NCBI GenBank assembly: GCA_045837725.1
Contig: JBEWZL010000035.1
Location: forward strand, 1-63,213
Length of the DNA: 63,213 nucleotides
From: Vermamoeba vermiformis
Taxonomy: Eukaryota
Reading direction: 5' to 3'
Below are positions 1,775 to 56,135 of this stretch, one piece after another. The translations under genes were made by a program, and so were the position numbers. Below the pieces are notes generated by a model. That model did no database searches and had not been told where the DNA came from. It saw nothing but the letters and a program-made list of their open reading frames with translations. Each line of letters opens with the position of its first letter. Within the stretch, counting starts at the first letter, position 1.

Positions 1775-6751
<4,977 letters not shown>

Positions 6752-11578: not shown

Positions 11579-12677
11579 TTAGAGCTCATCAATTTCGCCG
11601 TTGCCCTTAACCCACCAGGCCTTGGTTTGGCGGTTCTTGCTGACAACAGTTTCGACGGTGTAGATCAAGGTCAATTGTACAGCACCGATAGGATCATCAA
11701 CCGAATCACCAACTATAAATTCGATATTAATAGAGCCATAAATTATCACCCAAACGAAAAGAGATCTTCGATCAATATTTAATTATTATAAAATTAGTAG
11801 TTCAATGAGCCAGTTCTTGGCCTCGCGATAGGAAATTTTTATATTACATACCGTTCAAAACTTGAGGAATTTCAACGGAGCAAGCAAAGTTATAACCCCA
11901 AGCAACCTGATCGATGAGGATTAGAATTTTATAGGAAAGGTTCAACGCAGGTTGTCGAGCTATGATAATAGTCCGCACTATCTATCGTCATGCTATTAAA
12001 CTTACATCGATATTAGAAGGAATGATTTGAACACCAGTCAAATATTGGCCTTTGCCTTTATATTTGCCGCCATAAATATAGACGACGTGGTAGTCAAACT
12101 TAATAACGGTGGCCTACATAATTCAGTCAATAAATCGCGGTAAGCATTTTTAAAAAAAATTGATCTTTTAAAGGTGAATTGTACTGACCTTGTAAAGATT
12201 AAAGTACTCAATGGAGTAAGCTTCAGAAACAGGCTGTTTCCAGTTTGTCAAAGTTTTCCAATCCTCGATACCTTTCTGAAAGAAGGAACGACAAGTTAGA
12301 ATTCGAACGGATTTAAGGATTTAGTTCGTGCTTACGGGGGTGGCAGTACCGTAATTGACCTTAACCACAGAAGTAGGTTGATTTTTCACGATAATGTCCC
12401 ACACTTCCTTGCCAATATTAATCATAGAACCAAGATCAACTCCATCAAATTGCAATCCACGTTCAGCACGAGCAACGCTCTCGTTCAAACGAGCCATATG
12501 TTCCTTGTACAGGTGGTACAAATTACCGCGAGCAGCTTCGTGAGGCTCCAAGCGACGGATCTTGAAAGTGAGCTCTTCGGCAGATTGGTCACCGAGATTC
12601 ACACCTGAGGTCGAAACACGCAAGGCATTGGCAAAAATAGCCAATGACAAAATTAATACAACGGTGGTTTGTTGCAT
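11579..12677 (-). CDS. secreted hypothetical beta-rich protein
   Basis: Signal peptide MQQTTVVLILSLAIFANA; spliced exons ...INIGKEVWDIIVKNQP...YIYGGKYKGKGQYLTGV...VAWGYNF...WWVKGNGEIDEL*. Confidence 0.75.
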
Positions 12678-12824
12678 TATGTATGGTTGTGGAAATGTAA
12701 GTTGTTTTTGGTTTGGTACAAAATTTTGTTCGATCAGAATTTGACTGTCAAATTTCTAACCCAAATTGTTACTTTGATATTTCTTTTACTTCTATTTACA
12801 ATAAATATTAAATATTCGCTTTGT

Positions 12825-15268
12825 TTAGGCAGCGACGATGTCAGAGGCGAGGTTTCGCTTTGCAGTAGGGCTGTTAGGGATCTCATCCAAAGGCTTCAAA
12901 CCAGGGTGCAAGTAAGCAGTGCGAAGAGTTTCGGAATCGAAGTGACGAGGGACTCGAGCCACATCCAAAATCTTCAACAATCTTCGCTCGTTTCGCTTGC
13001 GCTGAACGGCAAGAATGATGCACAACACGGCACTCAAACCTACGAAAGCCAAGGAAGTCCAAGCAGCGGCAAACAAGCCCTTGACAAGGAAGAAGAAAAA
13101 CGTAATGACTTGGAAGATGAGCAAGCTGACAAAGAAGATGTTGATCGAGGTGGGAACGAAAGCACCAGGAGGGTGAATGTCGCGAGTGTGAACGTAGATA
13201 AAGTTGTATCTATCGGAGAACCAACGCAAAGCGAAGTAAGTCAAACCGAAGGGCAAGATGAGCGGAGTGACGATGCTGAAAGAGATGGTGATGACGAAGA
13301 CCAAGAGACAGAAGGCAATGTGAGTCATGTAGGAGTAGTAGCCAACAACGTCCTTGTAGTAGGTGTCCTTGGAGCTCTTGCGGACAAAGTCAAGGACGTA
13401 CGAGATGAGTTGACCGGGGCGCAACAAAAGCAAGACAAAACCTTGCAAGAACATTGCAAAAATCAACCATCCGATCAAGAAGGCACCAATGCGAGAGTAA
13501 TCAACAGACGAGAAGTTGTTGAGGATAGAGCTCGGGTCAGAAAGGAATTGCTGTAATTAACACATTAGTCACGATTACTTTCGCATACCATAGTGTATCT
13601 TGCTTACATTAGCAAAAGCGACACCGCTGTCAAAGATGGTCTTGAAGATCAAAGAGTTTAGCACGACGAAGAGGAAATACTTGCGCAAAGCGCCGATTTC
13701 GAGTGAGGTCTTGCTGTGAGGGCGTTCAAGCTTGGTCAAAGCGCGCATAAGAGTGGGCAATACGGCCAAGAAGATGTACACAAGCAAGATGGGAATGTAG
13801 TAAATGATCAAGTTTGTCGCGATGGGGCTGATGTTCAAGATCCAGCCAAAGTAGGGTGCACCAGCGTCGGTCAAGCCGAAGATGATAATGTTGCTAAAGA
13901 ACGAAATGACAGCGGACCAAAAGAGGGCAATGAGAACGACTAAGATGTTGACACCAACGGCAGCAAGACGTTGCATCCAGCGAGGAGCATAGAGGTAGTT
14001 CCATTGAACGGCAGCTGGGGGCACGGGAGCAATCTTGGCAGACCACTGTCTGAGCTTAATAGACTTCTCGGCCTCGCTTCCGCGGTGTTTGCGAAGTCTG
14101 TGGCTGGTCTCTTCCATGTCGCGGACGCATCGTACAGCGTCAGAAGGCTCTCTGAAAGTAACAAAAGCTACGGGCGAGTCTTTGTGAGTCAATGGCATCA
14201 ATTGTTTGGTTTGCAATGCGTTAGTCCAGACATCAATGCTGTTGGTGTAATGGTCGAGAGCATCGGCCTTGACGGAAGAGTCTTTACACTCCTTGGCTTC
14301 GGTACGCTTGTTCTTCTCGCGCAAAAGCTCTTCAGCTTTGCCGTAACCCATGTAAGCGTTCCTTCGGTTTGAAATGAATCGAAGATGCTCGGGGAGGTGG
14401 TAGCCCAAGTTGACCGACAAGACGCGATCCGGGTAAAGTTCGTTGAAGTAATCGAAGATGACATTAGGATCGGCTGTCTTAGGCAGATTCAAATAGACAG
14501 TGCAAGCTTGCACGGCTGTAAATTAAATCTGTGAGTTGAAATTTCACTCGAATGTCGGCAACTTCTAGATCGATATATCTCGATCTAAAACCGCATCAGC
14601 ACCACTTACTGCAAGGGTCTCTGTAGGCCTCTCTCAACTTAGGCAAGAAGTACTTGTTCTGGTAGAAGTAAATGAGCAACCAAGCCAAGACGCTGAACAC
14701 AGCAAACACAGCAAAGTTAGCCCACAACCACGAATAGCCTTCTTCGTAGACACTCGCCGACAGGTCGGGGAAACTTATGCCGCCGGAGTAGATTGTAGTC
14801 AATGGGAATAAGATAACGAGGCCTATCATCAATTCATGAACATTTTTAAAAATGAAGTTAAAATTTTTGGATCTGTTTCACTTACCGATTACAGTGCAAA
14901 TGGCAAAATAAATCATCAAGTACTTGATGAACTTCAATTGAAAGACGGCATTATATCCTGAGCTGAGCACAATTTCCTGTTCTGAAGCGCTGAAAACATT
15001 TCTGAACCAGCCGCAGCCTTTTTTCAGTTTTCTGTATGAATCCGGACTTGAAGAGAACAAATGGTTAGTGAATATGTTACTTGTGCGTATAATGCTCCAT
15101 TTTCAATTCTTACTTGTTTTCTCTGTATTTAGGGTAGAAAAACCTCGCCATGCCCGGTCGCAGAATTAAAAATATGATCAACAAAGCGATCATAATTGCA
15201 CCGGTGATAATCAGTGTCTCGGGTATACCACCCGTTGCGGTATTCTGTTTGTCACCGCCGCTATTCAT
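12825..15268 (-). CDS. OSCA/TMEM63/CSC1-family mechanosensitive Ca2+-permeable channel
   Basis: Many TM helices; AFVTF motif, cytosolic RRM-like loop, FSIVTPLILPFGLTYF and DRYNFIYV typical of the RSN1_7TM region. Confidence 0.9.
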
Positions 15269-18699: not shown

Positions 18700-21600
18700 T
18701 TATTCACTTTCGCTGCTCGAGGTGCTATCATTCTCATCTTCTTGATGGTCCACTGATCGCACAGACTGGCTGCTCTTCACTTCATACTGCGCATCAACTT
18801 CAGCCTCTTTAACAGGGTCGCGATAATGATCCTCTTCAGTGTCGCGTGACACCATTGTAGTCATGGAATTAAAGTCTTCTTGCTTATCCACGGACAGCAT
18901 GCTGGAAGAGGTCACAGAGTCGGAGATCTCCCGCATAGAACTTGACGAGTCAAAAGAGCTTCCAGAGTACGTTCTGATTCTATGGTTGGCCTTCAAGGTC
19001 AAGGGTGGATTCACGGGCACAATCACTGCTTTGAATAGCTGTTCGTGACTGATAGTATTCAAGTCAACGCGTTTGCTGAGATTAGCTTCAGATCTAATTG
19101 TATTGAACATGTCGACGGGCGTTAACGAGAACGAGAGTCCTTCACTGACGTGATGCGGCTGGTTGTGGTCTGCACTGTCGGCGTCAATCTCGAACACATT
19201 GGACATATCACTGCGCGCTGTTGAGACGCTCTTGCTAGCCCAAGTAGACTCATCGTTATCGTCCTCCTCTTCTTCACGCAGCTCATCCAAGAACAGATGT
19301 CTGTCGTTGAGTTCTTCAGTCGTGTCGTTGTTCTTCACACTTTCATTAGCCACGGAAATGACTGACTTATCGTCGCGCTCTTTAGGCTTGTCTTCTTCTG
19401 GAAGGGTCGATACATCTCCAATAGGCACGTGATCGTGATGTTCGCTCACGTCATCCATGTTAGGGTGATCGCTGACTTGTGACGAATGATCGGTCATCTG
19501 TGCCATCTCCTCCATTACACGGGCCATGCGTTTGTCACTAAACACGCTGTAAGCATCACTGACTACTGAACGATTGTCATCGTGATGGTGCATGTCAAGC
19601 GCCTCGTGATCAAGCATGCTAGCGTGGCTGGCATAGTCTGTGCTTAGTTGCAAGTGTTTCTCTTCGTGCGACTCATCAACAGGAGCAAGACCCTGTTCTT
19701 GATCGCGCTGGTTAGACGTGCTTTGATCGTTCAAGCCCGAGCCTTTTTGTTGCACGAATTGAACGAGCAACTGAACCGTGTTCTTCAGCTCCTCGATCTC
19801 GCGTGTTTGTTTCTGTTTGTCTTCACGGAGTTCATTGACAGTGCTCTTAAGTGCTTCAATTTCCTTCGCTTGCTCATCCACAGTCTGCTTGAACAGTGTT
19901 GTAACACGATGGAAACTTGACAAAATGTCACGTGGCTTGGGTGTTTTGACGACGTTTTCAGAAGTTGGAGGTGAGCTCGGGTTACCACCATTGGCTTCAA
20001 ACTTCGTGATCAATGACTTGATGTTGGCACTCGAGAACTCCATGGACGTCGATGGCGTTGACGTGCTTGACAAGGTGCCTTCTTGTTGACCCTCTTGTCT
20101 GTTCGCGTTAGTCAATTCGCCAAGCTGTTGCTGCATCTGTTGGAACTGCACGACGTAATCGAACGCAGGTTTGAGTCTGTTCAACACGTTCAATTGCGAC
20201 TCCAACTTATCGTTGATCGCTTGGCCCCAGTTATTCAACTAAAAGAAAAGATTAGCAGTACTTCCAAATTAGAAATTTCGTTTTTCTTACCTCGCTTTCA
20301 AGCTTCGATGCTCGTTCACGATCACTCTTTTCAATCCTGTCCAAGTTGCTGAGAATGTCTTCGTTGGTCTTTTCGACTAGATCCAAGCGCGTGTTAACAG
20401 CTTGTAACTTGTCCTTCTTGTTCTTGTTCTTCGCTGACATGTCGACGTGGCCACTCATAATGACGTTCTCGCCTTTGAGCTTCTTGCCTAGTCCGTAGAA
20501 ACTCAATTTGGACGCTTCTAACGGTGCATTTTTGCGCTTGTTTCGAACCAAGAAATAGCAGCCCTCTTCGTCACACTAAAGAAGCTGGAGTTAGAAAATT
20601 TCTCTAGAAAGTGATGCTGTGCTTACGTTCATATCGAGCACAGGTCCGTTAGTTGAGTACTCTTTTACTAAGTAGACGCGCAACGGGGTCTCGAGACCAC
20701 GTGCCCGTTCAATAGGCGCCGGCAAGCTGTAACTGTTGCCAGGGCTGCCGATCGGTGTGACAATGCCAGGCACCGCTATACTGCCCCCAGTAGCCGGTCC
20801 AACGCTGTTGCTGTTGTTGCTCGTGGTCAAACTACTTGTGCCTGATCCACCCGTCAGATCAGTCTCACTCGAACCGTCTTCAACGCGCCACACAGTGAAC
20901 TTTGATGACTCGTGACCGACGATTAAATGTGGTCCTAATTAGAGGACATTAGCATCGATCGATCTGAAAAAAAATTCTGTGTTGTTTGTACTTGCCTTGT
21001 TTCTGGATCAAATTGATTTTGTTCTCGTAATACGAAGCACGAACAATGACCGGTTCTAGATTGTTGCCAGAAGCCGCGCTTGATGTGTTGAGATCCGCTT
21101 CATTTGTCGTGTTGAAATAATACATAGTTGCGGGATTTTGAGGGCTATAACACATCATTAGATCCATTTCCTTATTTGGAAAGATACTTACTTGATCAAC
21201 AAATGCGTTAATTTTCGCACGCACACGGTGCCATTACGATCACCAAAATAAATGTACTTCTGATCCAAATACATCTCAGTAATAATTGTGTGGTGCCTTA
21301 TAACAATAGGATCGTCATTGGCTGTAGAAAAAATTATTAGCAACGAGACCTGACCACATCCGGAACTTACCTTGACCCAAGAACCAAATATAAATAGTAT
21401 CGATCGTAGATCCTGCCACGCACTCGTGGTTAGCTTGCAATTTAATCAAACTCGTGCCCTCTTCTTTCAGCTCGCCTTCTCTTTCGAGCTTGCAAGCGGA
21501 TGTGTTCCAAAGTTGCCACGCCTGAAAAAAATTAAATTTAGTTCAAATCTTACTTCAATATTAAATATGATCTTACGTGATGACTGCCAATCAATAAATA

Positions 21601-24803: not shown

Positions 24804-26035
24804 TTATTCGTCGGAGGTTTGAGGAGCCTCTTGGCGATCACCACCACGGAAGCCACCACGACCACCACGGAAACCACCACGGCGACCACGGAATCCTCCA
24901 CGGCCACCCTCAGGGCGCTCACCGCGTTGTTCACGGTCACGCTCTTCACGGTGGTACTTCTCGACCTTAGGGGCAGACAAGAATTCGGAGTAGTGAGCGA
25001 AGGGGTGGTTGAGCAATCTGTGCTCGGGCCACAAATCGGGGGTCAAGAAAGAGTAAGTGGCAGTGATGGCAGCGAAAGTAGCCTTGGCGAAGTTACCGAG
25101 GGTCTTGGTTGAACCCTTGGATGAAGTGTAGACGTCATCAATACCGGCAATGGTCAAGATCTTCTTGGGGACACGGGCAGAGACGATACCAGTACCACGA
25201 GGAGCAGGGACCAAGCGGACAGTGACGGAACCGCACTTACCGGTCACCTTGCAAGGAACGGTGTGGGGCAAACCGATCTTGTTACCCCAGAAACCTCTGC
25301 GAACAGGGACGACAGAGAGCTTGGCGGCAATGATGGCACCACGGATAGCGGTGGCAACTTCCTTGGAGCACTTAACGCCCAAACCGCAGTGACCGTTGGA
25401 GTCACCGACCATAACGTAGGCCTTGAAGCGGGTACGTTGACCGGCCATAGTTTGCTTTTGGACGGGGGAGATCTTGAGGACTTCATCCTTCAATCCCTAT
25501 ATTGAAGCAAAATATTTAGTATGTTGAGGGAACATTGCTTAAATACGATTAAGCAAATTTGTCATTATTATGGTGGTGGATTTCGATCGCGATCCAGAAA
25601 CGGTTTGTGCCTTCTCGCACAAAATTAACAATTATCTATGATAATAATACTAACCTTGCCACCATCAAAGAAGTAGTCAATGATTTGGAACTCCTTGACG
25701 GGGATGGAGTGGAGGTAGATATCCTCCAAACGAGCAATCTTGCCGTCCTTAACAAGGCGACCCAACTTGGTAACGGGAACCCAAGCGGCTTCTTCCTTGT
25801 TGTCACGGTCACCACGGCGACCACGACGATCACCGCGACGATCGCCACGGCGACCAAATCCTCGACGCTCTGTTTAAAAAATATTAAATCAAATGTCCAT
25901 ACAATTATTATAATAATTGGTAATTGTATAACATATTTAGCATGCAAATGTAATTAAGAGAAAATTTGTAAGCTGGAGATTTGATAACTTACCACCACGG
26001 GGTTGATCGGCTCTGGTAGTAGTAGTATCGGCCAT
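24804..26035 (-). CDS. RPS2: 40S ribosomal protein S2 (uS5)
   Basis: [51 protein letters not shown]-rich termini. Confidence 0.98.
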
Positions 26036-43642: not shown

Positions 43643-44922
43643 ATGGCGTACAAGGTACGGAGCATTGTAAGCTAATAATTTTTACGGGAATAATCGTTAA
43701 TTAATTTGTTGATGAAAATGCACGCATTAACAAATCGTTTATAAGTATAATACTAGTATTAATTAGCAATATTAATAGGTGCACAATATAAATTATTTCG
43801 CCTTGCTGATATTCGTTATCGCAATTTTCGATTGCAACGCCCAAGAACTCGGATCTACGATAAGTTTCCGAGGAGACTGGGAAAATGGTCTTACTGGTGT
43901 TGGTAATTGGGCCAGTACCGAGTGGGCGCGTCCGAATGCCTCGATCCAGCTGATCACAGAGCCGGTGCGACAAGGCAAATACGCAGCTCGATTCGAAGTG
44001 ACCGAGAATGATTACATTAACAGTGGCGAGCGTGCTGAAGTGTCTAGCATTAGAAATGCTACTGGTGCGGTAGATCGCGCAGAAAACATACCCGGTAAAC
44101 GACAAGAATTTTTTAGATCACGGATGCTGACTTTTTTTTTCTTAGGAAATGTATTCTTCTACGCATTTAGCGCTTATTTACCTTCTCCATTTGTAAGCGG
44201 CACTTCATGGACGATTTTGTTGCAGATGCACGGACCAAACTCGTGGCCTTACGCCGGCGCCTCTCCTTCTTTTGCAGTCAGCGCGCAAGGAGTGTATGCA
44301 ATTCATGTCAACGGAGGACCTAAGAACGGCACAAAAACCAATTACCGAAATGCGGAATATAAATTCTCAGATTCAGAAATCATTCCTGACTCGTGGGAGG
44401 ACTTTGTGTTCGAGATCAAGTGGGACATTGAAAACAAAGCGTACATCAATGGCTGGCGCAGACGATGGGGCCAAGGCGAAAAAGAATTCACGCAAGTGCT
44501 GCGGGTGACCAACGAGTCCACACTGATGTACGACTGGAATTTGGTGGTCAATGGTAGGACTTGCACGTGACGTTCATGCAACTCGATCACTCATTGCCTA
44601 ATTAGGAAATGGTACCGGCACAGTGCGTGACGCGCACTACTGGAAGCATGGCGTCTACCGCGGTAGTCCCCACGTGACTCCGAATGCAACCGTGGCCATT
44701 CTCGACGGCTTCACACGTGCTCTGACATTCGCGGACGCAGTGTACGGTGCTTTTGGCGACGAGCCTGCTGCGCCGAGTGCTGGACCTGGTGGTCAGTCCA
44801 ATCAGCCTGGTGCTAACTCCACGCCTGGAGTCAACACACCAAGCACTGTGACATCAGACACTGCTAGTTTGGTTGTTAGTGCTGTTGTTGGTGTGACGGT
44901 GTTTTTAACTGCTTTGTGGTGA
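43643..44922 (+). CDS. secreted, probably GPI-anchored polysaccharide-lyase-like (heparin lyase I-type jelly roll) protein
   Basis: MAYK|VHNINYFALL signal; VRQGKYAARFEV, GERAEV, LLQMHG, WEDFVFEIKW, YWKHGVYR; Pro/Ser linker and hydrophobic tail. Confidence 0.75.
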
Positions 44923-46257: not shown

Positions 46258-48892
46258 ATGAATACGAACAAAAAATTGTATTTATTTGTCGCTCTTGCAG
46301 CGCTGACTTTCGTCACCGTCGTGGATTCGCAAATGCTGCATACCAAGCCAGTGCATACTGTGACGGTGAATGGCAAATACTACGACACTTACGCAAAGGC
46401 AGGCACCGAGATTACATTCAAGGCAGTCGTTACGGATGCGAATGGAGATCTGACCAACCACACCATCGAAGTTCGTCGTCCTGATGGCAAAATGAGCTAC
46501 GACGGATGGTTAACGGGCGCTGAATGGCAGCCAGGTGTCGAAGGCGATGGTTCTCAATCAGTTAAAACAGCTAAGGTCACTGTAACTGATGTTGGTAAGT
46601 AACACTCGATTTTGAATTTGGATCGTCCGCTCAAAAGATTTTAATTCCACTAAATTCTTTATTCTATTACATTCCACTAGTAATTGCAACAAGATATTAT
46701 TATATTATTTCGAGTTAGGTTACCAATGGAGTTAAATCTGCGAATCTTTATTAATGAATTTCAACAAGCATCGAGATCTGTTAACAGCGACTAATAATGC
46801 GTATATTCAGGCTCGTATAACTTCGTAGCGCGTGCTACAAATGCGGAGGATACCAATGTTTACGATAGCAACATTCTTCGAGTAATTATTCTTGCCGACG
46901 ATCCGGTCACCGATGATTACGTCCCTGATACGATCTTCTTCCCCGATGGAACAGTCAATCGAGCAGAATTTGAAAAATATTGGGCTAATTGGACGCCTAA
47001 AGCAATGTCTAAGCGACTTGGCCCTACTTTTGCCGAACTTCATCCGGATGCCGCTGAAGATCGTCCAACGATTCCTCAACCTGGCACTTGGACTTGCCCG
47101 ACTTCTTATGTCAACAAATATAGTCCTTATGAATTCGGTGCTCAAGGCTGCGCAGGAGATAACGACTACTGGTCTACCGCTGGTCAAGTCGGATACGTTC
47201 CGGTAACCGAAGGTGACCCTGGCATGGACCGCGTTCAAGTCTTAGCTTACTACGACAATGTATATGCCTTGTCACCTCGTTGGGACTTCCCTAGTGGTCA
47301 ACCACATCCAGATCCACAAACGAGAGCCGCAGAGTACAACGGCAGCGCTCAATTCCCAGTGGCTTCAAAACGAAATTACGCGCAGTTACAAAATGAGGCT
47401 TTGACAGTGTACAGAAGTGGCTTGCTCGGAGTTAATGGCTTGCAGACTTCACGCGAAGGTGGTCTTTTTCCTGGTTTGAAATTTCCGTCGCACTTGATCC
47501 CGACAGATCTCGCGGTTACAAGTGGCAACGAATTGGCGTTAGTGACCCTTTGGGATACTGAAACACTAGTCGGCAAGCTCGCAGTTGTTGCTATTGAAGC
47601 CAAACACATTCCGTTCCACACTACGCAGTTCTTGGGCATGCCGAACCAAGGCTCATTCTCGGATCTGGTCTTATTAGGCTATGTTAACCTTCCAATGGTC
47701 GCTCCAAGCTCCGTAGATGCTGCTAGTAATCAAAGGTACGTTCAAATTATCCGTTACAAAATATTTCCTTATTCGGAAAGTCATTTCAACATTTGGATCT
47801 AACACTTTAACTCACAGATGGCAAGGTCCTAGTGATACTGCTGGCTTGACATTGGGTCAATTAGACTTCACTGACCCAGCACTCCGTCTTGGATTGTACA
47901 ACGGATCTTGGAATTACGTAGTGGCAGACAAAGGCTACGCTATTGTAGCCAGCAAGCTCGAGAACAAAGTCTGCATCGTCGATTTAACGCCAGTGCTGCT
48001 TGAATTTCGCGAAGCATGGTTGATGAATTTCGACGAAACTCTTGCTGCTAGATCCGCTGGCACGTGGCCACCTATGTTTGACTCCGATGCCGTAGACGTA
48101 CCTGCTGCTAAAGGAGCCCATGGACCCAATTCAGTAGCATCACCTGCCTCTCGCCATACTTGGAGTGATATGTTGCAATCGATCAAAGTTGTATGGAGCT
48201 CGGAGAATTACCGGGAAGAACCTGTCGTGAAGAAATCTGCAAAGCGTTCAGTGAAACAACTTGCAAAACCGCAAATACTCGAAACCTACGAGATGGACCA
48301 GCCTGTAGCAGTTATAGCTGGAAAATGGATCGATCGATGGACTGCCGATCGATTCAAAGCCCACGTGGCACTTGCAAACGGATCCGTCGTTATTTTGGAC
48401 ACATCGTCTTTATTGGCGCGATATGACTACCAGATCAACGAACCACTGAAGATTATGGGCTCGTTCCCTGTTTGCGAAGGTCCGACCAACATCGTTCCCG
48501 CTCGATTTGCCACCCGAAATTTACCGCTACTTCCCAAAAATGGAAATAATCCAGATACTGTTCAGTCAGATCCGGTCAACAATCACTTCTACGTCGTTTG
48601 CAGAGGCTCGCGTCAAGTCGCTGGAGTTATAACTCAAGGCGGTGAAGGAGCTGTTTACATGCGTTATCAAGACATTAGGCTAGAAGATCCGGTCAATGCC
48701 GCCGTCGCGGATCGCGGAAATGTTTTGACCATAACGGACTACAATGGCAGAAAAATTCTTAGTTTCAATCTCGGCAGCATTACTGACAGACATGGTCGCT
48801 ATTATCCAGCTCCGGCTGAAGGCTATAGTTACGTCGGAGAATTGCCTCTCGCTGGTTATCCTTTCCTAATTAGTGTTGCGAACGTCAACTAA
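46258..48892 (+). CDS. large secreted protein (Ig-like N-terminus plus probable beta-propeller), bacterial-like
   Basis: Signal peptide; only two evident introns in 2.6 kb; beta-rich repeats (PTDLAVTSGNELALVTLWD, DPVNAAVADRGNVLTITDYNG). Confidence 0.8.
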
Positions 48893-49164: not shown

Positions 49165-52100
49165 TCACACGTCCAACGTTTCTTTCTTCTTATCTTTGTC
49201 TTTGCCACCCTGTTCTTTCTTCTTGGGAAGTTCCCCGTACATGTCGATAATTGCATTCAACAAATGAATCATCTGCGCTGATTTCTCTTCATCTTCAATC
49301 TGTGTGAATCGTTCACGAATCTTGTTTTCGTTTCGTATAATGTGTTCGTGCAAGTACGCGAGTGAGTTGAGTCGAACTTCGCTTGGCAGTTCAAGATCCA
49401 TTTTCACTTTCGCTTGTGCTCGTTCTTGTGGATTCTAAGAAAAAAAAATATAAGTCTCATTTGCTATCAAGAGATGTTCTATTTGTAAAAGGCTGTTTGG
49501 ACGCGTCAAAATAAAACAATAAAAAAATAAAAATATTACCAAAATGCTGCGATAAAAGTCGGCAATCTTAGGTCTGTTTCGATTGAGGAAGTCGCTCAAG
49601 TTCTCCATATACGCTTCTTTGTTGTTCGTGGCCATGTTCGCAAGTGTTTGGAGCACTTTAGCAATCAGAACAAGTTGTCGTTGCGCCACTGGATTTGGTG
49701 CTTCATGGAGAAGGCCGTAGTAGTGAGGAGCTGTCAGCGCTGGGCCGATGTAACTACGAGAAGACATCAAACATTAGACATTTCCTTATTTGGTAATAAT
49801 ATCACGCAGCCACTCACCGCAAGAACAAAAGACCACCAATGGCTTTGAATACTGCATCTTCATTACCAAATTTGTCCATGATAGTGTATGACATACGAGC
49901 AAAGATTTGACGGAATTCACTGAACGAAGAAGTCAGTCACGTGATTGACCAATTAGCGCGGCATTTAACTTACTTTGGTACTTTGTCGTCACCGTTCTTG
50001 ATCACTGTGAAGATCTTTTGACAGGCAAGAGCGAGTTGATAAACATTCTGATCGGTGTCAACACTCGCATCTTTGATCTTGTTCGGATCAACTTCCATTT
50101 CAATCTGAAGCAACGATGCTCCTTTGTCGTCGCTGTTCATTCTGTCTGCTTCTTTCATCGCTTTTGCTGCCACTGTGTTGAGTTCATTCACGACTATTGA
50201 ATGAACAGCGTTAGCCGGTGTTATCACTTTGACACTTTGACACTTTGACATTTTGACACGTTACGTGTCAGAAGTATTGAAATGTCGCTCACCTCTTGCC
50301 AAAGTGGACCACAAGTACTTTGTACCAACGAGTTTCGAGTAGTACTTGAACATCTTGCTGCCAATGCTGTTCAAACGGAAGATGGTGTTCTCGCTCGATG
50401 CTTTTCGTGCTTCTTCTGACACAAAGTACTGCAGCATTTCTGCACCTTGTTGCTTGTTTTGAGCCAAGAAGATCAAGTACTTTGCAACCTGTTTGAAACG
50501 GAGTCATTAGCGCATTTGCTTCAATGAATCGATGTCGAACTTACAGCGTCTTGTTCAGTAGGCGCAGTGACTTCTGCAACTGCATCAACAAAAGTTCTGT
50601 CACGACTCATCAGAACATCTTCTAGTTGTCTACGCAAAGATGTATAATCAGTAAGTGAACGATAAGAACATCAATTTGAAGTACTCACTGATAGTCGTCT
50701 TTGGCATTGATCTTGTATTTAAGTGTCAAGTCAGTTTGATAAGCCACCATCAAATAATCAGGCTCCACAACTTCAACGATCAATCCGCCACGACGTTTTC
50801 GCCAGCGCATGAACAGGATCAACAGCACTGTGCCTGCAATCAGTGCCGATCCACCAACTACAACTCCTGCAACCAATCCTGCAACGTCAATGGCTGCACT
50901 ACAGTTTTCAGCCCAAAGCTCGGGAGTGCCGCATGTTGCTTGCGTTGTGCACGTGTTTGATTCTGAGCACCAGCCACAAAGATTCTTTGCGATACATTGA
51001 GAGCACGATGTCAGTTGAGAGCAGTCTGTTTGGTGTAGGTTGTTAGCATTGTTGAGTGATGATAATGCGCCAAAGTGACTTACCAACGAAAGTGAACGGC
51101 ACTGGTCCAGCAATCGAAGTACTTTCGAACAACAATCTGAAGTTCAAACTGCTCTCAAAGATTACTTTTGGAGGTGTGCACATCAGTGACGAAGAGTTGA
51201 CAATTGTTGCAGATACTTTTGGAACTCCTTCGAACTCGCAAAAGAACGAGTCTGAAACTGATCTCTTCTTTGTTGTGGTCGTTTCGTTTGGCACCACTGA
51301 AGCAAGCGCAACAAATGGATCGATGGAGGGGTTGACTTCGATAGTCAGTGTGTCGTTGCCGAACAATGTTGCGTAGTTTGGAGAAACTGTCAGATCTGAA
51401 AAAACAATTAACTTTAGCTTAGTCATGATAAATGAATTAACAACAATAACACTCACCAATGCATTGTCGCAAAAAGAACTCTTCAGAGCCTGTGCATCGA
51501 GTTTGAGGACCACACGACTTGGTTGTCAAGCACCAACCACAGTACGGTGAGTCTGACATGCATTGTGACTGACATCCTGATCCTGTTGAGAACGAGTTGC
51601 AGCCTAAAAGTAATTGTGTCAGATGATGCCATATGATAAGATCTCTATGCTCGCTTACTGAAGAAGGTGAAGTTGAGAGGAGCGTTTGGTGCAATATCGT
51701 CACCGTTCAACAACACACGTAACTGAACGTCACCAATCAAACGACGGCGAGAAGGCGTGACACAAGTCAAGATGTTTGCATTGACAGCATTAATAGTCGT
51801 GCTATCAGCAGGCTGATCATCGAACAAGCACGTGTACGAAAAGTCAGCACGGTTGAAGAACGGTCCGCCAGAAACAACGACTGTTTCGCCTCCCTCGAAG
51901 TATCCGTAGTTTGGAGTAACGCTGTCGAGGGCTAGTTATGTTGTTAGTAATGCGTGATAGTGAAAAAGAAATTTCAAGACGTACTTGGGCACTGAGTTTG
52001 AGTGATATCACCAGCGTTACATTCAAATGCACAATACTGAGTGCACCAATTGCAACGAGTATTCGTCGGGGCCAAACACTCATTACAGCCACTCGTGATT

Positions 52101-55100
52101 ACGTTACAATCTGTTAGTGGAAAAGATGAGTACATTGATCATTTCGGTGTGGTCAATTGTCGTCGTACCGTAAAAAGTGAAAGAGACCTGGTTTGTGTAG
52201 ACCAGTCCGTTGACTGAAATATAGGCGGGAACGACGCCAACAGCAGCAGGAACAGTCACGCACGTGACACTGTTATCAGTGTAGTTCGCTGCGGGAACGG
52301 AGAGATTGCCAAAGAAGCACTTGACACTGGTCAAACTGCTGACTTGCGAGAACGAGAACGAGCCACTGAACACCACCACTTCATCGCCAAGTGTTGATGC
52401 ACTCGATGGAGTGGCACTTGTGATCGTTGGACACGTGGATGAGTTGCTCGATGTAGCTTGTGCTGCACATGTTGTACTGCCTTCGTGGAAGCACTGAAGG
52501 TTTGTGCCGCACCACGAACATGTTGGCTTTAAATCAGAAGCACAGTCTGAACACGAAGTTGCAGAGCAGTCTTGAGAGAAGCAATTAGCCAAGTGAAATT
52601 GAGGCAAAAAATCACGTGCTTACCGTAGACGAGAATTGGTGCGTCAGGAGTCAATCGCTGGTAGCTTCCGCCGCCAATGTCAGCCCAAACGCTCACTCTA
52701 GTCGTTCCAACGCTCAAGCTAGACTTTATAGGGCACGAAATGTACGTGCTGTTGGTGGGTGTTGCATCGGTCAAGTCAGAGAGTGTGACAGCTGTTCCAA
52801 CGTTCCAAGCACACTTCAAGGTTGGAAGCGTTTGTCCGTCGAACACAAACAAGCCACTAATGCGACTACACGAGAAATAGACATCAGTCTTGTGCTTTAG
52901 GCATAAGATTAATATGACTTACACAATGGTTGTGGCCAGATCGCCATAATAAACCGAGCTTGGGACCACATTGTTAATAGCTGATACAATATCATTAAAA
53001 CCTGTATTATGGCCGTTTAGTATTCATTGTTACTTACCAGGACAAGTTCCAGTTGTTGAGCACGAGGATGTTGCGTCAGCTTTGTAAATGCAAGAACGAA
53101 TGCTGCCAAAACAGAACGTGCAATCGTCACGAATCGTCACAGTGCCAAGTACATCGGTGCATGTTGAGCAGTCTTGAGCGTACAATGTACAATCTAGTGA
53201 CGCAGGTTAGATCAGGAAGGCAGCGAAGAGATCAATAATTACCGTAGAAAATGAATCCAGATGTCGAGGTGTAAAGCTTGCCATTGGCATGAACGTCAAT
53301 AGTTGTTTTGATCTCCGCTTGACCACCACGAAGTGTGTCCCATTGAGAGCGAATGTCAGGTGTGCGACAACTGATCGATGTGCTGCTCACTCTTGTGGCT
53401 TGTGTCTCGAACTGACCATCGAACACACACGTGTAATTTGCATTCGGAACGACTGTAGGTGAAATCGTCAAAGTGATCAGCTTGTCTGTGCAAAGAGATT
53501 AGTAATTAGCGCTGAGCGATGATGCGTCGAACTTACTTCCTCGAATGGATGCGCCAAGTGAAGAAAGCGATGTCACAGCTGAACAAGATTGGTTAGACAC
53601 TAATAGAATACGAGAATGTGATACTTACCAGGACAAGATCTGGTCCATGCATTGGCATCACATCGCTGAATCGATCCACAAGTCGAGTTTGTCAAACACA
53701 AACCACATTCTGTTTCGGTGAAGCATGAAGCGCAATCTGAACTTGCTGAGCATTCTGCATTCGCGTTTGAATGTTAGTTCATATGGAAAGAAATACAAAG
53801 ATGGATACGTACGATAGTAAGTGAATGAAGCAGAGTTTGTGGTCCACCAAGTGTTCTTCCAACGAATACGGAGATTCTTTGAGCCAGGTCCACTGCTCTT
53901 GGGACTAACACACTGCAAGCTTTGGAACTGAAGGTTGTTGACCAGTGTCACAGTCGATTCGTCCCACACGCAGCGGAAGTCAGCGGCATTGAGCAAATCA
54001 CCGGAGCTGTTTCCGAAAGTACTTGTGACATTGACCAATGTATTGCCGTCAATGGAGCCTCTAGCGGGGTCAAGTTTTTGAATTACTAATAAATAGAATT
54101 AGACTGACAAGCCTATTAAAATGACGGTAGGAGTGACTTACCAGGGCAAACGTAGAAGCGAGTATCTTGATACCATTGGTCAGGTTGAGAGCACTCTTGC
54201 GAAAGGGTGCAATTTCGCTCTTGGTTACAAAAACCGCAGTAAATGGCGTCCTCAGAGCACGTCAAGCAATCATAAATGGAACAACCTGAGTGAAATTTCG
54301 TAAGGATTTTCCGCGGATAAAACTCGACTGTGCACAACAAAACTTACTCGTGATTTGCAATTTGTACACTGCATCGCCAGATCCACTCTTGGTTGACCAA
54401 TACATCCAATTGTTTGCCACGTCGAAGTAAGTAAAACCGAAAGGCTTAGCAACAATATCAGCTAAATACACATTATTATTAATACGTTAGATTCTTCTTA
54501 GTATTTCGTGAATTGCATACCAGTTTGGCCAAAGTACTGCCAAGTTTGAGTCAGTCTTGTAATCGCTGATTGCGAGGTAGTTTTGTCTTGAGCGCCCATA
54601 AATACGACGTCATTAATAGCATCTGATTAAATGACATTAGCATTAACTCGCGAATGTTCGTTTTTAATGCTTACCATAGCCAATTGCTGACACGCTGACA
54701 CCAGTCTCGAAGTACAACTGTCTGCTGAGCAAATTGGCGTCGACCTATATCGTTATTAGCGCTATTGTTCAAATAGATATTGCTTGTAACGTACCTCGAC
54801 AGCAGATCCAACACTGTCACCGACCAAAAAGGAATTTCGACGAGGGTTATTCACGACTACGGTGATCTATTGCTTTAATTAGTCGCCTTCCGTGATATAT
54901 TGTTAAGTTATCGCAGTACTTACAGGATAGTTTCTTTCTGTAACGATAGCTGCATTTGATCCAACTTTGATTCCAACAGCCCCGACAGTTCCTCGAGTCG
55001 GTGTATCGCGGGAACCACCGAAAAAGACCTAAGATAACATATATTAACATCGTTCAGGCCCGTTAACAATGGATTTTAAGCTACATAATGTATAGCAAAT

Positions 55101-56135
55101 GAGTTACAATGAGCTCCAAAAAAGTGTCACAAATGTCATCGGGCTATAATTAGCTTAATTTCATCGATTCAATTGGGAACGTAATGCTGAGCTTAATAGT
55201 TTAGGTAGTTTACTTACGGTGTTCGTCGCGATGTCGATATCAATCGATATAAATCTATTGGTGAGGAAAATTGTTGCCGGGGAAACGATTCCTTTGCCGA
55301 TAGAATTTACAGCTCCAGAAACACCTGAATAGGCGACAATATCACCTGAAGAAGCGATATAAATCGTATCCGATTGTGGCGAATAAGCGCAATCCTAAAA
55401 AAATGGGATTAAGTTTAGGCGAATTATACGGTAATATCATAGTAATTTACTTACAGCATAAGTTCCAACGTACTGATTGAAACAAAAGCCGCAGCTAAAG
55501 CTTCCCAAATCAGTTGTTCCACCGCTTGGGTTAGATAACGAGAATCGATACACATTTTGGTTCATGCAAAAGAAACCTAATGTAGATTGATGAGTACAAA
55601 CGTATTAAAAATAATTGGGAAATAATTGTTTCAATTTGCACGAGATTTCCTTTTCGATCCCAATTTTCCTACCGTAGTTTTTCGCTGGGGCTACCATAAT
55701 TGCTCTTACTGCTGAAGATGCTGTGTATATTTTCTGTGCCGAAGCTACGTTATCGGGAGCATCAGTTAGCTGTTAAAATAACAATTAGTTCACTTTTCGA
55801 ACGGACCGCTTCTAGATGTGGACAAAATCTCAAGTCCACTTTCGGAAAGTTTTATCTTATATCATTCGTACCCGATAAATAGCGTTGTTGCCTCCCCAAA
55901 AAAAGATATTTTGTCCACTTGTCGGATCTGTGTAGTTTACGAAAGCCGTTAATCCAGCCATTCCTCCAATTGTTATAGGCGAGCCGATTTGCTACAATAA
56001 CATAAGTTTAAAGGCCAAAATCACATTGCTATTGTAACGTACCACCATGCCTCGATCTAAAATTGTTTGACACGAAACGAAAGCGAGCCAATAGGCCAAG
56101 CAAAGCACCGATACTAACGCGTACTTTGCCCCCAT
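49165..56135 (-). CDS. plexin-like single-pass receptor: signal peptide, beta-propeller, 7 PSI and 6 IPT/TIG domains, TM, RasGAP
   Basis: MGAKYALVSVLCLAYWLAFVSC signal; seven CxxC...CxWC/FC/LC PSI modules alternating with IPT-like domains; TM VAGLVAGVVVGGSALIAGTVLLILFMRWRKRR; RasGAP IFRLNS, FLRYIGPAL, LIAKVLQTLAN. Confidence 0.88.

What the first reader, a model, noticed from the sequence alone, without database searches (positions are those of the whole stretch)
49165..56135. Plexin-like receptor with an unsplit RasGAP in a non-animal protist
Seen: signal peptide, propeller-like N-terminus, seven PSI alternating with six IPT domains, one TM helix and a contiguous neurofibromin-type RasGAP with arginine finger (FRLNS) and FLR motif. 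Established: plexins are Sema-PSI-IPT-TM-GAP with the GAP split by a Rho-binding domain, and are regarded as choanoflagellate/animal. This protein has the same layout without the insertion, so it may be a proto-plexin or a convergent receptor-GAP that couples contact sensing directly to Ras/Rap shut-off. Best candidate for an undescribed signalling system in the window.
Basis: partly seen in the sequence, partly recalled or inferred. Interest (0 to 1): 0.85.

Follow-up and report, generated by a model that had tools for sequence, protein, structure and literature searches.

The report
Amoeba receptor with built-in RasGAP
This amoeba gene encodes a single-pass surface receptor laid out like an animal plexin (propeller head, PSI/IPT stalk, one membrane helix) but ending in an ordinary, unsplit Ras-inactivating domain, and it belongs to a family that seems to be undescribed.

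Summary
On the minus strand, 56135..49165, lies an intact gene of 30 exons (1679 aa). It encodes a signal peptide, a ~335-aa head, seven PSI domains alternating with six IPT domains, one TM helix, a conserved juxtamembrane motif, and a contiguous RasGAP with both catalytic arginines.

A transcript-derived protein of Vermamoeba vermiformis (Amoebozoa) is colinear with it. Identity is 56% in the head and 96% in the GAP. So ectodomain and GAP lie on one mRNA, and the organism is not holozoan.

Twenty-two further protein clusters share the layout, including proteins of Vermamoeba and Echinamoeba.

The head, folded on the Vermamoeba homologue, is a compact seven-bladed beta-propeller. It resembles WD40-type propellers. 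No Sema signal appears in Pfam or in profile searches. The GAP is closest to neurofibromin, SynGAP and p120GAP. It has no Plexin_cytopl match and no insertion.

Verdict: a real receptor-type RasGAP that works like a plexin but is not one. It was most likely assembled independently from shared domains. A proto-plexin reading is not excluded but is unsupported. Ligand, GTPase target and regulation are inferred. This is a new variant of a known kind; interest 0.62.

The parts
49165..56135 (-). Whole coding region: 30 exons, 29 GT..AG introns, 1679 aa (an alternative model of 31 exons gives 1691 aa)
   Evidence: Splice model. 29 of 29 junctions are gapless against the transcript-derived P0002. Four introns are confirmed by spliced RNA reads of a 90-95% alike relative.
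56070..56135 (-). Signal peptide (aa 1-22, MGAKYALVSVLCLAYWLAFVSC)
   Evidence: Hydrophobic N-terminus read directly. P0002 has an equivalent hydrophobic start. No signal-peptide predictor was run.
54349..56069 (-). Head, aa 23-357, in exons 1-10: predicted compact seven-bladed beta-propeller
55108..55143 (-). Doubtful 36-nt micro-exon, probably intronic (part of the 189-nt intron 55029..55217)
   Evidence: The DP model included it. A second DNA version in run X1 has +4 and +1 nt insertions inside it, whereas all the other listed indels inside the coding span fall in introns. Leaving it out keeps the junction gapless against P0002.
54143..54348 (-). PSI1 (aa 358-405)
   Evidence: Pfam PSI E=0.0027 on the exon. 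Cysteine pattern and family HMM.
53814..54142 (-). IPT1 (aa 406-496)
   Evidence: Pfam TIG E=3e-4, 21.2 bits against a cutoff of 20.9.
53630..53813 (-). PSI2 (aa 497-538)
   Evidence: No Pfam hit at E<=0.1. It has the eight-Cys PSI spacing and is 93% identical to PSI2 of P0002, which the family PSI HMM recognises.
53244..53629 (-). IPT2 (aa 539-633; two exons)
   Evidence: Pfam TIG_plexin E=2e-6. 96% identical to P0002.
53039..53243 (-). PSI3 (aa 634-685)
   Evidence: No Pfam hit at E<=0.1. Cysteine pattern and family HMM on the homologue.
52625..53038 (-). IPT3 (aa 686-785; two exons)
   Evidence: No Pfam hit at E<=0.1. Family IPT HMM on the homologue.
52428..52624 (-). PSI4 (aa 786-833)
   Evidence: Pfam PSI E=0.021 on exon 52170-52568.
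52170..52427 (-). IPT4 (aa 834-919)
   Evidence: Pfam TIG E=9.3e-7.
51986..52169 (-). PSI5 (aa 920-961)
   Evidence: No Pfam hit at E<=0.1. Cysteine pattern and family HMM.
51660..51985 (-). IPT5 (aa 962-1052)
   Evidence: Pfam TIG E=4.7e-10.
51458..51659 (-). PSI6 (aa 1053-1101)
   Evidence: Pfam PSI E=5.2e-4.
51085..51457 (-). IPT6 (aa 1102-1205)
   Evidence: No Pfam hit at E<=0.1. Family IPT HMM on the homologue. 90% identical to P0002.
50898..51084 (-). PSI7 (aa 1206-1248)
   Evidence: Pfam PSI E=4.9e-8, 33.6 bits against a cutoff of 23.1.
50808..50894 (-). Transmembrane helix (hydrophobic run aa ~1250-1278, followed by RWRKRR)
   Evidence: Hydropathy scan. The helix lies in the same exon as PSI7 and the start of the cytoplasmic part.
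50721..50807 (-). Juxtamembrane segment (aa 1279-1307) with the family-invariant EPDYxxVA motif (EPDY at 50765..50754)
   Evidence: E, P, Y and A are invariant in the 24-row alignment A4. Position.
49297..50720 (-). RasGAP module (aa 1308-1636; equivalent to the GAP-334/GRD constructs), six exons, contiguous
   Evidence: Pfam RasGAP on exons: 4.6e-5 and 1.5e-7. On P0002: 2.6e-26 over model positions 1-207. PDB: NF1 2e-21, SynGAP 7e-19, p120GAP 1e-17. 96% identical to P0002.
50366..50380 (-). FRLNS arginine-finger motif (Arg = aa 1384, codon 50377..50375)
   Evidence: Read in the sequence. The Arg is conserved in 29 of 29 family rows.
49753..49825 (-). FLR motif (aa 1517-1519; the codons span the intron 49754..49817)
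   Evidence: The Arg is conserved in 29 of 29 family rows.
49168..49296 (-). C-terminal tail (aa 1637-1679), ending in a lysine-rich stretch
   Evidence: Lysine-rich tails recur in most family members, but the last residues are not conserved.

Best explanation
The locus encodes a type-I, single-pass receptor-type RasGAP. It belongs to a gene family of echinamoebid amoebae (Vermamoeba-like; Amoebozoa, Tubulinea).

Anatomy, outside to inside:
- a fast-evolving, compact seven-bladed beta-propeller head;
- a stalk of six PSI-IPT pairs plus a seventh PSI;
- one TM helix;
- a ~30-aa juxtamembrane segment with an invariant EPDYxxVA motif;
- a complete classical RasGAP module with both catalytic arginines;
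- a lysine-rich tail.

Most likely mechanism:
1. The head binds something outside the cell, such as a surface on prey, on another cell or on the substratum.
2. Engagement gathers or re-orients the receptors.
3. The GAP, already tethered at the membrane, switches off Ras-family GTPases just beneath the contact.
4. This limits or vetoes the Ras-driven actin structures (cups, pseudopods) that amoebae build there.

It therefore works like a plexin (contact sensing wired straight to a GAP) but is not a plexin. It was most likely assembled independently from the widespread propeller, PSI, IPT and RasGAP building blocks.

Shown here: the gene structure, the domain order, the catalytic residues, the family, and one mRNA in close relatives. 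Inferred: ligand binding, the target GTPase, how engagement regulates the GAP, and the cellular role.
For: Gene and transcript:
- The ORF is intact over 30 exons.
- 29 of 29 junctions are colinear with the complete Trinity ORF P0002 of Vermamoeba vermiformis.
- Spliced RNA reads of a 90-95% alike relative confirm 4 introns.
- Exon 24 alone spans PSI7, the TM helix and the GAP start.

Family:
- 22 of the 35 non-self hits to the GAP region carry TIG and/or PSI together with RasGAP.
- Named members are two Vermamoeba loci (P0002; P0013/P0048) and two Echinamoeba loci (P0019; P0118).
- 21 of those 22 have a TM helix about 100-125 aa before FRxNS.
- Both catalytic Arg are present in 29 of 29 rows.
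- The family is one clade against the fungal IRA/NF1-like outgroup (SH-aLRT 99).
- Several ~1700-aa members sit on contigs of only 5.3-6 kb, which suggests intron-free transcripts (inference).

Head:
- AF2 gave pLDDT 80.5.
- Heads of all five subclades align end to end.
- One Echinamoeba member carries an added SUEL lectin domain, which fits ligand recognition.

Identity gradient against P0002: head 56%, PSI and IPT domains of the stalk 55-96% in a mosaic, GAP 96%. This is the pattern expected of a recognition receptor with a conserved output.

GAP kind: NF1, SynGAP and p120GAP are the best solved relatives.

Precedent for the role: in Dictyostelium the RasGAP NF1 limits macropinosomes and phagocytic cups by locally inhibiting Ras (PMC4374526, abstract read).
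Against: - No RNA evidence for the window's own copy. Only 4 of 311 laid reads in X11, and 0 of 109 and 0 of 114 in X9 and X10, are >=99% alike. No RNA read lies on the head exons.
- The head fold was predicted on a 56%-identical homologue with a shallow alignment (25 rows), not on the window's own protein. Spliced sequence could not be handed to the tools.
- No ligand, no GTPase target and no GAP activity is known.
- Classical RasGAP domains are active as monomers (recalled, not tested). So how engagement would regulate a GAP that is permanently at the membrane is open.
- The family range rests on word-seeded searches. Most members are unnamed.
Confidence: 0.6

Rival explanations
1. True proto-plexin. 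The whole chassis (propeller, PSI/IPT, TM, GAP) is homologous by descent to plexins. On this reading it was inherited from a common ancestor of Amoebozoa and Opisthokonta. The Sema specialisation of the propeller and the Rho-binding insertion in the GAP arose later on the animal/choanoflagellate stem.
For: - Same domain order and topology.
- The family profile's best solved match is the plexin-A4 ectodomain stalk (3e-41), ahead of MET (2e-18).
- Pfam TIG_plexin hits 11 of 24 full-length members.
- A language-model feature search of IPT6-TM-GAP lists only plexin clusters as nearest, but at 0.76-0.81, below the tool's reliability line. This is a lead only.
- The head has the same general fold class as Sema, a seven-bladed propeller.
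Against: - Sema: no hit in 25 of 25 rows, none at E<=10 in 4 representatives, and no Sema, plexin or MET chain at E<=10 for the head-only profile.
- The semaphorin matches of the whole-protein profile (0.0017-0.09) vanish when PSI1 is removed.
- The head is ~335 aa and is closest to compact WD40-like propellers.
- The GAP is closest to NF1, SynGAP and p120GAP. No plexin cytoplasmic chain is among the 60 best PDB matches (E<=0.11), and there is no Plexin_cytopl hit.
- Named members come only from Echinamoebida.
- Plexins were not found in Creolimax or Capsaspora (PMC6374515). Descent would therefore need many losses.
Confidence: 0.1
2. Polymorphic self/non-self (kin) or mating recognition receptor. 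The variable head and stalk bind the same or a partner protein on another amoeba, and the GAP reports the match. This is analogous to the polymorphic IPT/TIG-rich TgrB1/TgrC1 pair of Dictyostelium (recalled, not tested here).
For: - Extreme ectodomain divergence against a 96%-identical GAP between the window and P0002.
- The mosaic of near-identical and divergent domains suggests recombination or gene conversion.
- The DNA run that holds the window also holds a second version at about equal depth, e.g. 22 differences in 332 nt.
- A third variant, P0001, exists.
Against: - It is not known whether the window gene and P0002 are alleles, orthologues in different strains, or paralogues.
- There are no population data.
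- Vermamoeba is not known to aggregate (recalled).
- The lectin-bearing member points to glycan ligands instead.
Confidence: 0.15
3. Constitutive membrane-anchored Ras suppressor. The ectodomain serves only for adhesion, sorting or glycocalyx structure, and GAP activity is not regulated by any ligand.
For: - The GAP module starts only ~30 aa after the TM helix.
- Classical RasGAP domains need no activation (recalled).
- The invariant Y-x-x-V in EPDYxxVA resembles a tyrosine sorting signal (for the invariance; the motif class is recalled).
Against: A ~1250-aa ectodomain with a rapidly diverging propeller head, conserved in layout over five subclades, is hard to explain without ligand recognition.
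Confidence: 0.1
4. Artefact: two neighbouring genes fused by my splice model, or a dead copy.
For: There is almost no RNA evidence for this exact copy. One junction region (exons 5/6) is ambiguous.
Against: - A single exon spans PSI7, the TM helix and the GAP start.
- A complete colinear transcript ORF exists in Vermamoeba.
- 22 other clusters have the same layout.
- There is no stop or frameshift in 30 exons, and all introns are GT..AG.
Confidence: 0.03

Closest known systems
Plexins (animals and choanoflagellates)
   Same: Type-I single-pass receptor. N-terminal seven-bladed propeller directly followed by PSI and IPT domains. Cytoplasmic GAP of the RasGAP superfamily. The stalk is the best solved sequence match of the family profile (plexin-A4, 3e-41), and TIG_plexin hits were found.
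   Different: The head gives no Sema signal and is ~335 aa, WD40-like. The stalk is a strict (PSI-IPT)x6+PSI; the plexin pattern of three PSI-IPT pairs followed by further IPT domains is recalled. The GAP is a contiguous PF00616 domain with no Plexin_cytopl and no RBD. The plexin clusters listed carry PF08337 and PF20170; this family does not.
Neurofibromin/IRA, SynGAP/DAB2IP and p120GAP (classical RasGAPs)
   Same: These are the closest relatives of the GAP module by sequence. PDB, single sequence: NF1 2e-21, SynGAP 7e-19, p120GAP 1e-17. PDB, family profile: SynGAP 5e-37, NF1 6e-36, p120GAP 2.5e-31. The next-best database proteins after the family are fungal IRA/NF1-like (1e-24 to 1e-21). The arginine finger and the FLR arginine are both present.
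   Different: All of these are cytosolic proteins recruited to membranes. None has a signal peptide, ectodomain or TM helix. The Sec14-like domain (PF13716) seen on 10 of the 13 non-family hits, all of them NF1/IRA-like, is absent here.
MET/RON receptor kinases and Met-like kinases with plexin ectodomains
   Same: Propeller-PSI-IPT ectodomain on a single TM helix with a different enzymatic output. MET PSI-IPT matches the family profile (2e-18). They show that this ectodomain plan has been joined to different output domains more than once (PMC10084454, passage).
   Different: The output is a tyrosine kinase and the head is a Sema domain. They are found only in animals.
Dictyostelium TgrB1/TgrC1 (recalled, not tested here)
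   Same: Amoebozoan single-pass surface proteins rich in IPT/TIG domains, highly variable, used for recognition.
   Different: They have no enzymatic cytoplasmic domain.

Membership tests
Plexin | N-terminal Sema domain (Pfam PF01403) | tested here: not met
   No Sema hit on P0002 at E<=0.1, none in 25 of 25 rows at E<=0.01, and none at E<=10 in 4 representatives of 4 subclades. The head-only profile of 10 members finds 9 PDB chains at E<=10; none is a Sema, plexin or MET chain, and the best is the WD40 protein CFAP52 at 1.9e-4.
Plexin | Head has the Sema variant of the seven-bladed propeller fold (large size, characteristic insertions, disulfides) | tested here: inconclusive
   The model is a seven-bladed propeller. 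No Sema chain is among the 50 rows shown by either search, but a family that is not listed is not excluded. No pairwise comparison with a Sema structure could be run. The head is ~335 aa and has only 4 cysteines.
Plexin | PSI and IPT/TIG stalk after the propeller | tested here: met
   PSI, TIG and TIG_plexin hits on the window's exons and on P0002. 7 PSI and 6 IPT. Plexin-A ectodomains are the best PDB matches.
Plexin | Single TM helix, type-I topology | tested here: met
   Signal peptide plus one hydrophobic helix followed by RWRKRR. There are 74 Cys before the TM helix and 1 after it.
Plexin | Cytoplasmic Plexin_cytopl GAP (PF08337) split by a Rho-GTPase-binding domain (PF20170) | tested here: not met
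   No PF08337 or PF20170 hit. RasGAP PF00616 positions 1-207 are matched within 195 residues, so there is no insertion. No plexin cytoplasmic chain is among the 60 best PDB matches of the family profile.
RasGAP (PF00616) | Full RasGAP domain above Pfam's gathering score | tested here: met
   P0002 scores 93.2 bits against a cutoff of 28.3. 24 of 24 full-length family rows hit. Window exons score 31.9 bits (model 169-207) and 23.8 bits (model 1-48). The window GAP is 96% identical to P0002's.
RasGAP (PF00616) | Catalytic arginine finger (FRxNS) and secondary arginine (FLR) | tested here: met
   FRLNS and FLRYIGPA are in the window. Both Arg are present in 29 of 29 family rows. The role of the two arginines is taken from PMC12871552 (passage).
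RasGAP (PF00616) | GAP activity on Ras or Rap | not testable with these tools
   Needs a biochemical assay.
Neurofibromin/IRA | Large cytosolic protein with a Sec14-like/PH module (PF13716) next to the GAP domain | tested here: not met
   P0002 has no PF13716. 10 of the 13 non-family hits, all NF1/IRA-like, carry it.
WD40 repeat propellers | WD40 sequence repeats | tested here: inconclusive

The most novel reading that the evidence does not exclude
The amoebozoan family and the plexins descend from one ancestral receptor-GAP (propeller, PSI/IPT, TM, RasGAP) that already existed before Amoebozoa and Opisthokonta split. On this reading, Sema is a derived propeller and the plexin GAP is a derived RasGAP with an inserted RBD. 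Contact-triggered GTPase shut-off by a single-pass receptor would then be far older than animals and choanoflagellates.
Probability: 0.1. Interest if true: 0.9.

Novelty: new variant of a known kind. Interest (0 to 1): 0.62.

Why it matters
Among the six human RasGAP groups listed in PMC12871552, plexins are the only transmembrane receptors (their receptor nature is recalled). They are treated as an invention of the animal/choanoflagellate lineage (PMC6374515).

This finding shows that a free-living amoeba lineage carries a whole family built to the same plan but with a classical RasGAP. There are two readings:
- The plan evolved twice. That would argue that wiring a contact sensor directly to Ras inactivation is a favoured solution for crawling, engulfing cells.
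- The plan is much older than thought.

In amoebae, Ras patches organise feeding cups, and the RasGAP NF1 restrains them (PMC4374526). A surface receptor that carries its own RasGAP offers a direct, testable link between what the cell touches and where cups or pseudopods are allowed.

The strong head divergence against a nearly invariant GAP suggests a recognition repertoire. Vermamoeba is also a common environmental host of intracellular bacteria (recalled), so receptors that gate uptake are of practical interest.

Tried and rejected
- No whole genome is held for this window, so paralogues in the source genome could not be counted. Only one copy lies in the window.
- Rfam found nothing in the window, so there is no rRNA with which to place the organism.
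- Earlier-findings look-ups returned nothing.
- The first splice model, with long introns allowed, skipped exons. It was replaced.
- The head as a single sequence found nothing useful. Only itself among near-length proteins. Only 9 exon-sized fragments of 55-126 aa in the exhaustive search. No PDB match better than E=0.28. The ESM Atlas gave only a sub-threshold lead to LDL-receptor YWTD repeats (0.84), which the fold did not bear out.
- AF2 without an alignment failed (pLDDT 41.7).
- An alignment of the head with exon fragments (A1) was misaligned by the internal repeats and was not used.
- The look-up of sequencing runs listed no RNA holder.
- Complex prediction on two copies of the cytoplasmic part (aa 1268-1668 of P0002) gave 'no answer' (score 0.00). 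It counts neither way.
- The C-terminal ...TLDV as a PDZ ligand was rejected, because tails are not conserved in the family.
- A GAP tree that includes plexins, p120GAP, SynGAP and animal NF1 could not be built. No such sequences could be obtained. The tree has only fungal IRA/NF1-like outgroups and used 35 rows. I left out P0035, P0040, P0042-P0046 because they matched fewer than 200 profile positions.
- Literature: no paper holds plexin + Amoebozoa + RasGAP, 'transmembrane RasGAP', or Vermamoeba vermiformis + genome + plexin. Looser searches listed nothing on such a receptor.
- Supplementary tables of PMC6374515 (the species surveyed) were not seen and might list amoebozoans.

Full report
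**What is there**

The region holds no long bacterial-type ORF. It holds a chain of short open segments on the minus strand, separated by GTRAGT...YAG introns.

- A dynamic-programming splice model followed by hand checks gives a gene from the ATG at 56135 to the stop at 49165-49167.
- The best model has 30 exons, 29 GT..AG introns (28 of 49-105 nt and one of 189 nt) and 1679 codons.
It is probably intronic. A second DNA version in run X1 has +4 and +1 nt insertions inside it. Every other listed indel inside the coding span falls in an intron.
- Each PSI and each IPT unit is a whole number of codons in the same phase, mostly one exon each. That is the pattern expected of repeats spread by exon duplication (inference).

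**One transcript, and which organism**

I searched with the exon that carries FRLNS. The search found P0002, a 1668-aa complete Trinity ORF recorded in EukProt as Vermamoeba vermiformis.

- P0002 is colinear with the window model. All 29 of 29 junctions align without gaps.
- Exon 24 alone encodes PSI7, the TM helix and the start of the GAP module. So the ectodomain and the GAP cannot be separate genes.
- RNA-seq reads from runs with the same species label lie on the gene only at 90-95% likeness, and almost only on the 3' third:

| Run | Reads laid | >=99% alike | 95-99% | 90-95% |
|---|---|---|---|---|
| X9 | 109 | 0 | 5 | 104 |
| X10 | 114 | 0 | 13 | 101 |
| X11 | 311 | 4 | 29 | 278 |

- These reads confirm four introns: 49920-49973, 50194-50292, 50487/9-50542/4 and 51024/6-51083. 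They come from a close relative of this copy, so expression of the window's own copy is not shown.
- Vermamoeba and Echinamoeba are Amoebozoa, Tubulinea, Echinamoebida. The 'holozoan' refutation therefore does not apply.
- The window also carries ordinary eukaryotic genes, for example RPS2.

**Architecture**

| Test | Result |
|---|---|
| Exon-wise Pfam, PSI exons | hits in 4 of 7 at E<=0.1 |
| Exon-wise Pfam, IPT exons | TIG or TIG_plexin in 4 of 6 at E<=0.1 |
| Exon-wise Pfam, GAP exons | RasGAP at both ends of the model |
| Pfam on P0002, RasGAP | 2.6e-26, model 1-207 in 195 residues (unsplit) |
| Pfam on P0002, TIG | 2.2e-21 |
| Pfam on P0002, TIG_plexin | 1.9e-10 |
| Pfam on P0002, PSI | 3.1e-5 |
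| Pfam on P0002, Sema / Plexin_cytopl | none |

- Cysteine spacing and HMMs built from P0002's repeats give 7 PSI and 6 IPT in strict alternation.
- There is one TM helix followed by RWRKRR. There are 74 cysteines outside the membrane and 1 inside, and 15 N-glycosylation sequons outside.
- FRLNS (Arg1384) and FLR (Arg1519) are present.

**A family, not a one-off**

I searched with the GAP region of P0002 among proteins of 917-2919 aa. This gave 36 hits at E<=0.001.

- Besides P0002 itself, 22 clusters (36-58% identical over the GAP) all combine RasGAP with TIG and/or PSI.
- The remaining 13 hits are fungal IRA/NF1-like proteins, insect raskol/DAB2IP-like proteins and one unnamed protein. None of them has TIG or PSI.
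- Named members are a second Vermamoeba locus (P0013/P0048) and two Echinamoeba exundans proteins (P0019; P0118).
- 21 of the 22 clusters have a TM helix about 100-125 aa before FRxNS. P0012's glycine-rich segment falls under my hydropathy cutoff.
- All members show a head of roughly 300-390 aa followed by six or seven PSI-IPT pairs.
- Both catalytic arginines are kept in 29 of 29 rows.
- A juxtamembrane EPDYxxVA motif is invariant.
- In a quick ML tree the family is one clade against the fungal outgroup (SH-aLRT 99). It has five subclades, and the window gene is sister to P0002 (99).
- Several ~1700-aa members lie on 5.3-6 kb contigs. This suggests intron-free environmental transcripts (inference).

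**The head**

As a single sequence the head is an orphan.

- AF2 without an alignment failed (pLDDT 41.7).
- With the 25-row family alignment the P0002 head plus PSI1 folds with pLDDT 80.5 and pTM 0.82, into 27 strands.
- Foldseek's top 50 are all seven-bladed WD40 propellers (E 2.4e-12 to 4.3e-11, TM 0.57-0.64).
- No Sema, plexin, MET or integrin chain is among the rows shown.
- A head-only profile of ten members finds 9 PDB chains at E<=10. The best is the WD40 protein CFAP52 (1.9e-4). None is a Sema-domain protein.
- The weak semaphorin matches of the whole-protein profile (0.0017-0.09) are therefore due to PSI1.
- Pfam Sema hits 0 of 25 rows. Two members weakly hit one WD40-type propeller family and one member hits another. 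One Echinamoeba member adds a SUEL lectin domain.

The head is thus a seven-bladed propeller, as in plexins, but I found nothing that makes it a Sema domain.

**The GAP**

| Search | Best solved relatives |
|---|---|
| Single sequence | neurofibromin GRD 2e-21; SynGAP 7e-19; p120GAP 1e-17; IQGAP1 4.5e-9 |
| Family profile | SynGAP 5e-37; NF1 6e-36; p120GAP 2.5e-31 |

- No plexin cytoplasmic chain is among the 60 best matches. In contrast, plexin ectodomains top the list through the stalk (plexin-A4, 3e-41).
- The GAP-334-like module starts about 30 residues after the membrane.

**Divergence pattern**

Identity of the window protein to P0002, by domain:

| Region | Identity |
|---|---|
| Head | 56% |
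| PSI1 | 55% |
| IPT1 | 71% |
| PSI2, IPT2 | 93%, 96% |
| PSI3, IPT3 | 69%, 77% |
| PSI4 | 94% |
| IPT4 | 70% |
| PSI5 | 62% |
| IPT5 | 78% |
| PSI6 | 94% |
| IPT6 | 90% |
| PSI7 | 81% |
| Juxtamembrane | 93% |
| GAP | 96% |

This is a mosaic with a fast-changing outside and a fixed inside.

- Run X1 holds two versions of the locus at about equal depth.
- P0001 is a third variant.
- Whether these are alleles, strains or young paralogues is open.

**How it most likely works**

Shown: a secreted-type ectodomain, one TM helix, and a catalytically complete RasGAP held at the membrane.

Inferred:
1. The head recognises an external ligand.
2. Engagement clusters or re-orients the receptor.
3. Ras-family GTPases under the contact are switched off.

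In Dictyostelium, NF1 restrains macropinosomes and phagocytic cups by local Ras inhibition (PMC4374526, abstract). A receptor with its own RasGAP would let the surface that is touched decide where such structures may form. How binding would regulate a permanently membrane-bound GAP is not known. A dimer prediction gave no answer (it counts neither way).

**Comparison and novelty**

- The protein works like a plexin, but it fails two defining plexin features that I tested: the Sema domain by sequence, and the split Plexin_cytopl GAP. I therefore do not file it as a plexin.
- It is a member of the RasGAP superfamily (PF00616). It is not neurofibromin, because it has no Sec14-like module.
- Plexins and semaphorins are reported only from choanoflagellates and animals and were absent from Creolimax and Capsaspora. 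The same paper notes that PSI, IPT and RasGAP domains occur separately in unicellular eukaryotes (PMC6374515, passages).
- I found no paper describing a transmembrane RasGAP or a plexin-like protein in Amoebozoa. Subscription journals and supplements were not searched.
- The most economical reading is independent assembly from a shared toolkit. Descent from a common receptor-GAP is not excluded; I put it at about 0.1.

Noticed in passing
window 49165-56135 (run X1): The DNA run that best holds the window contains two versions of this locus at about equal depth (for example 0 and 22 differences over 50625-50956). The RNA runs of the same species label carry a third, 90-95% alike version. This points to high diversity at the locus; allele versus paralogue is unresolved.
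   Followed up: partly
window 51084-54348: Every PSI and IPT unit is a whole number of codons in the same intron phase, mostly one exon per domain. That is the signature expected of repeat expansion by exon duplication.
   Followed up: partly
window 43779-44567 (+): An uninterrupted 263-aa ORF hits Pfam Polysacc_lyase (PF14099, 9e-19). A single-exon polysaccharide lyase in an intron-rich amoeba genome could be a bacterial acquisition.
   Followed up: no
window 24807-25496 (-): Ribosomal protein S2/uS5 (Ribosomal_S5 N- and C-terminal domains, 1.4e-27 and 1.8e-24). Usable to place the organism, but no protein search was left to do so.
   Followed up: no
window 13578-14522 (-): An ORF segment with PHM7_cyt and RSN1_7TM, an OSCA/TMEM63-type channel.
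   Followed up: no
window 7500-8153 (-) and 3692-4489 (-): Segments of a fatty-acyl-reductase-like gene (NAD_binding_4, 6.3e-45) and of an ABC transporter membrane domain (1.3e-7).
   Followed up: no
window 46798-48892 (+), 18703-20238 (-), 12657-13553 (+): Long open segments (334, 391, 512 and 299 aa) with no Pfam family at E<=0.001. The 391-aa one ends 270 nt from the receptor gene's stop, in convergent orientation.
   Followed up: no
P0019 (Echinamoeba exundans), residues 77-155: One family member carries a SUEL-type galactose/rhamnose-binding lectin domain ahead of the propeller head (1.1e-6, 29.4 bits, just under the 31.4 cutoff).
   Followed up: partly
window 50754-50765 (EPDY) and family alignment A4: The juxtamembrane motif E-P-D-Y-x-x-V-A is invariant or nearly so in all 24 aligned members. 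Its Y-x-x-V resembles a tyrosine-based sorting signal (recalled). Function unknown.
   Followed up: no
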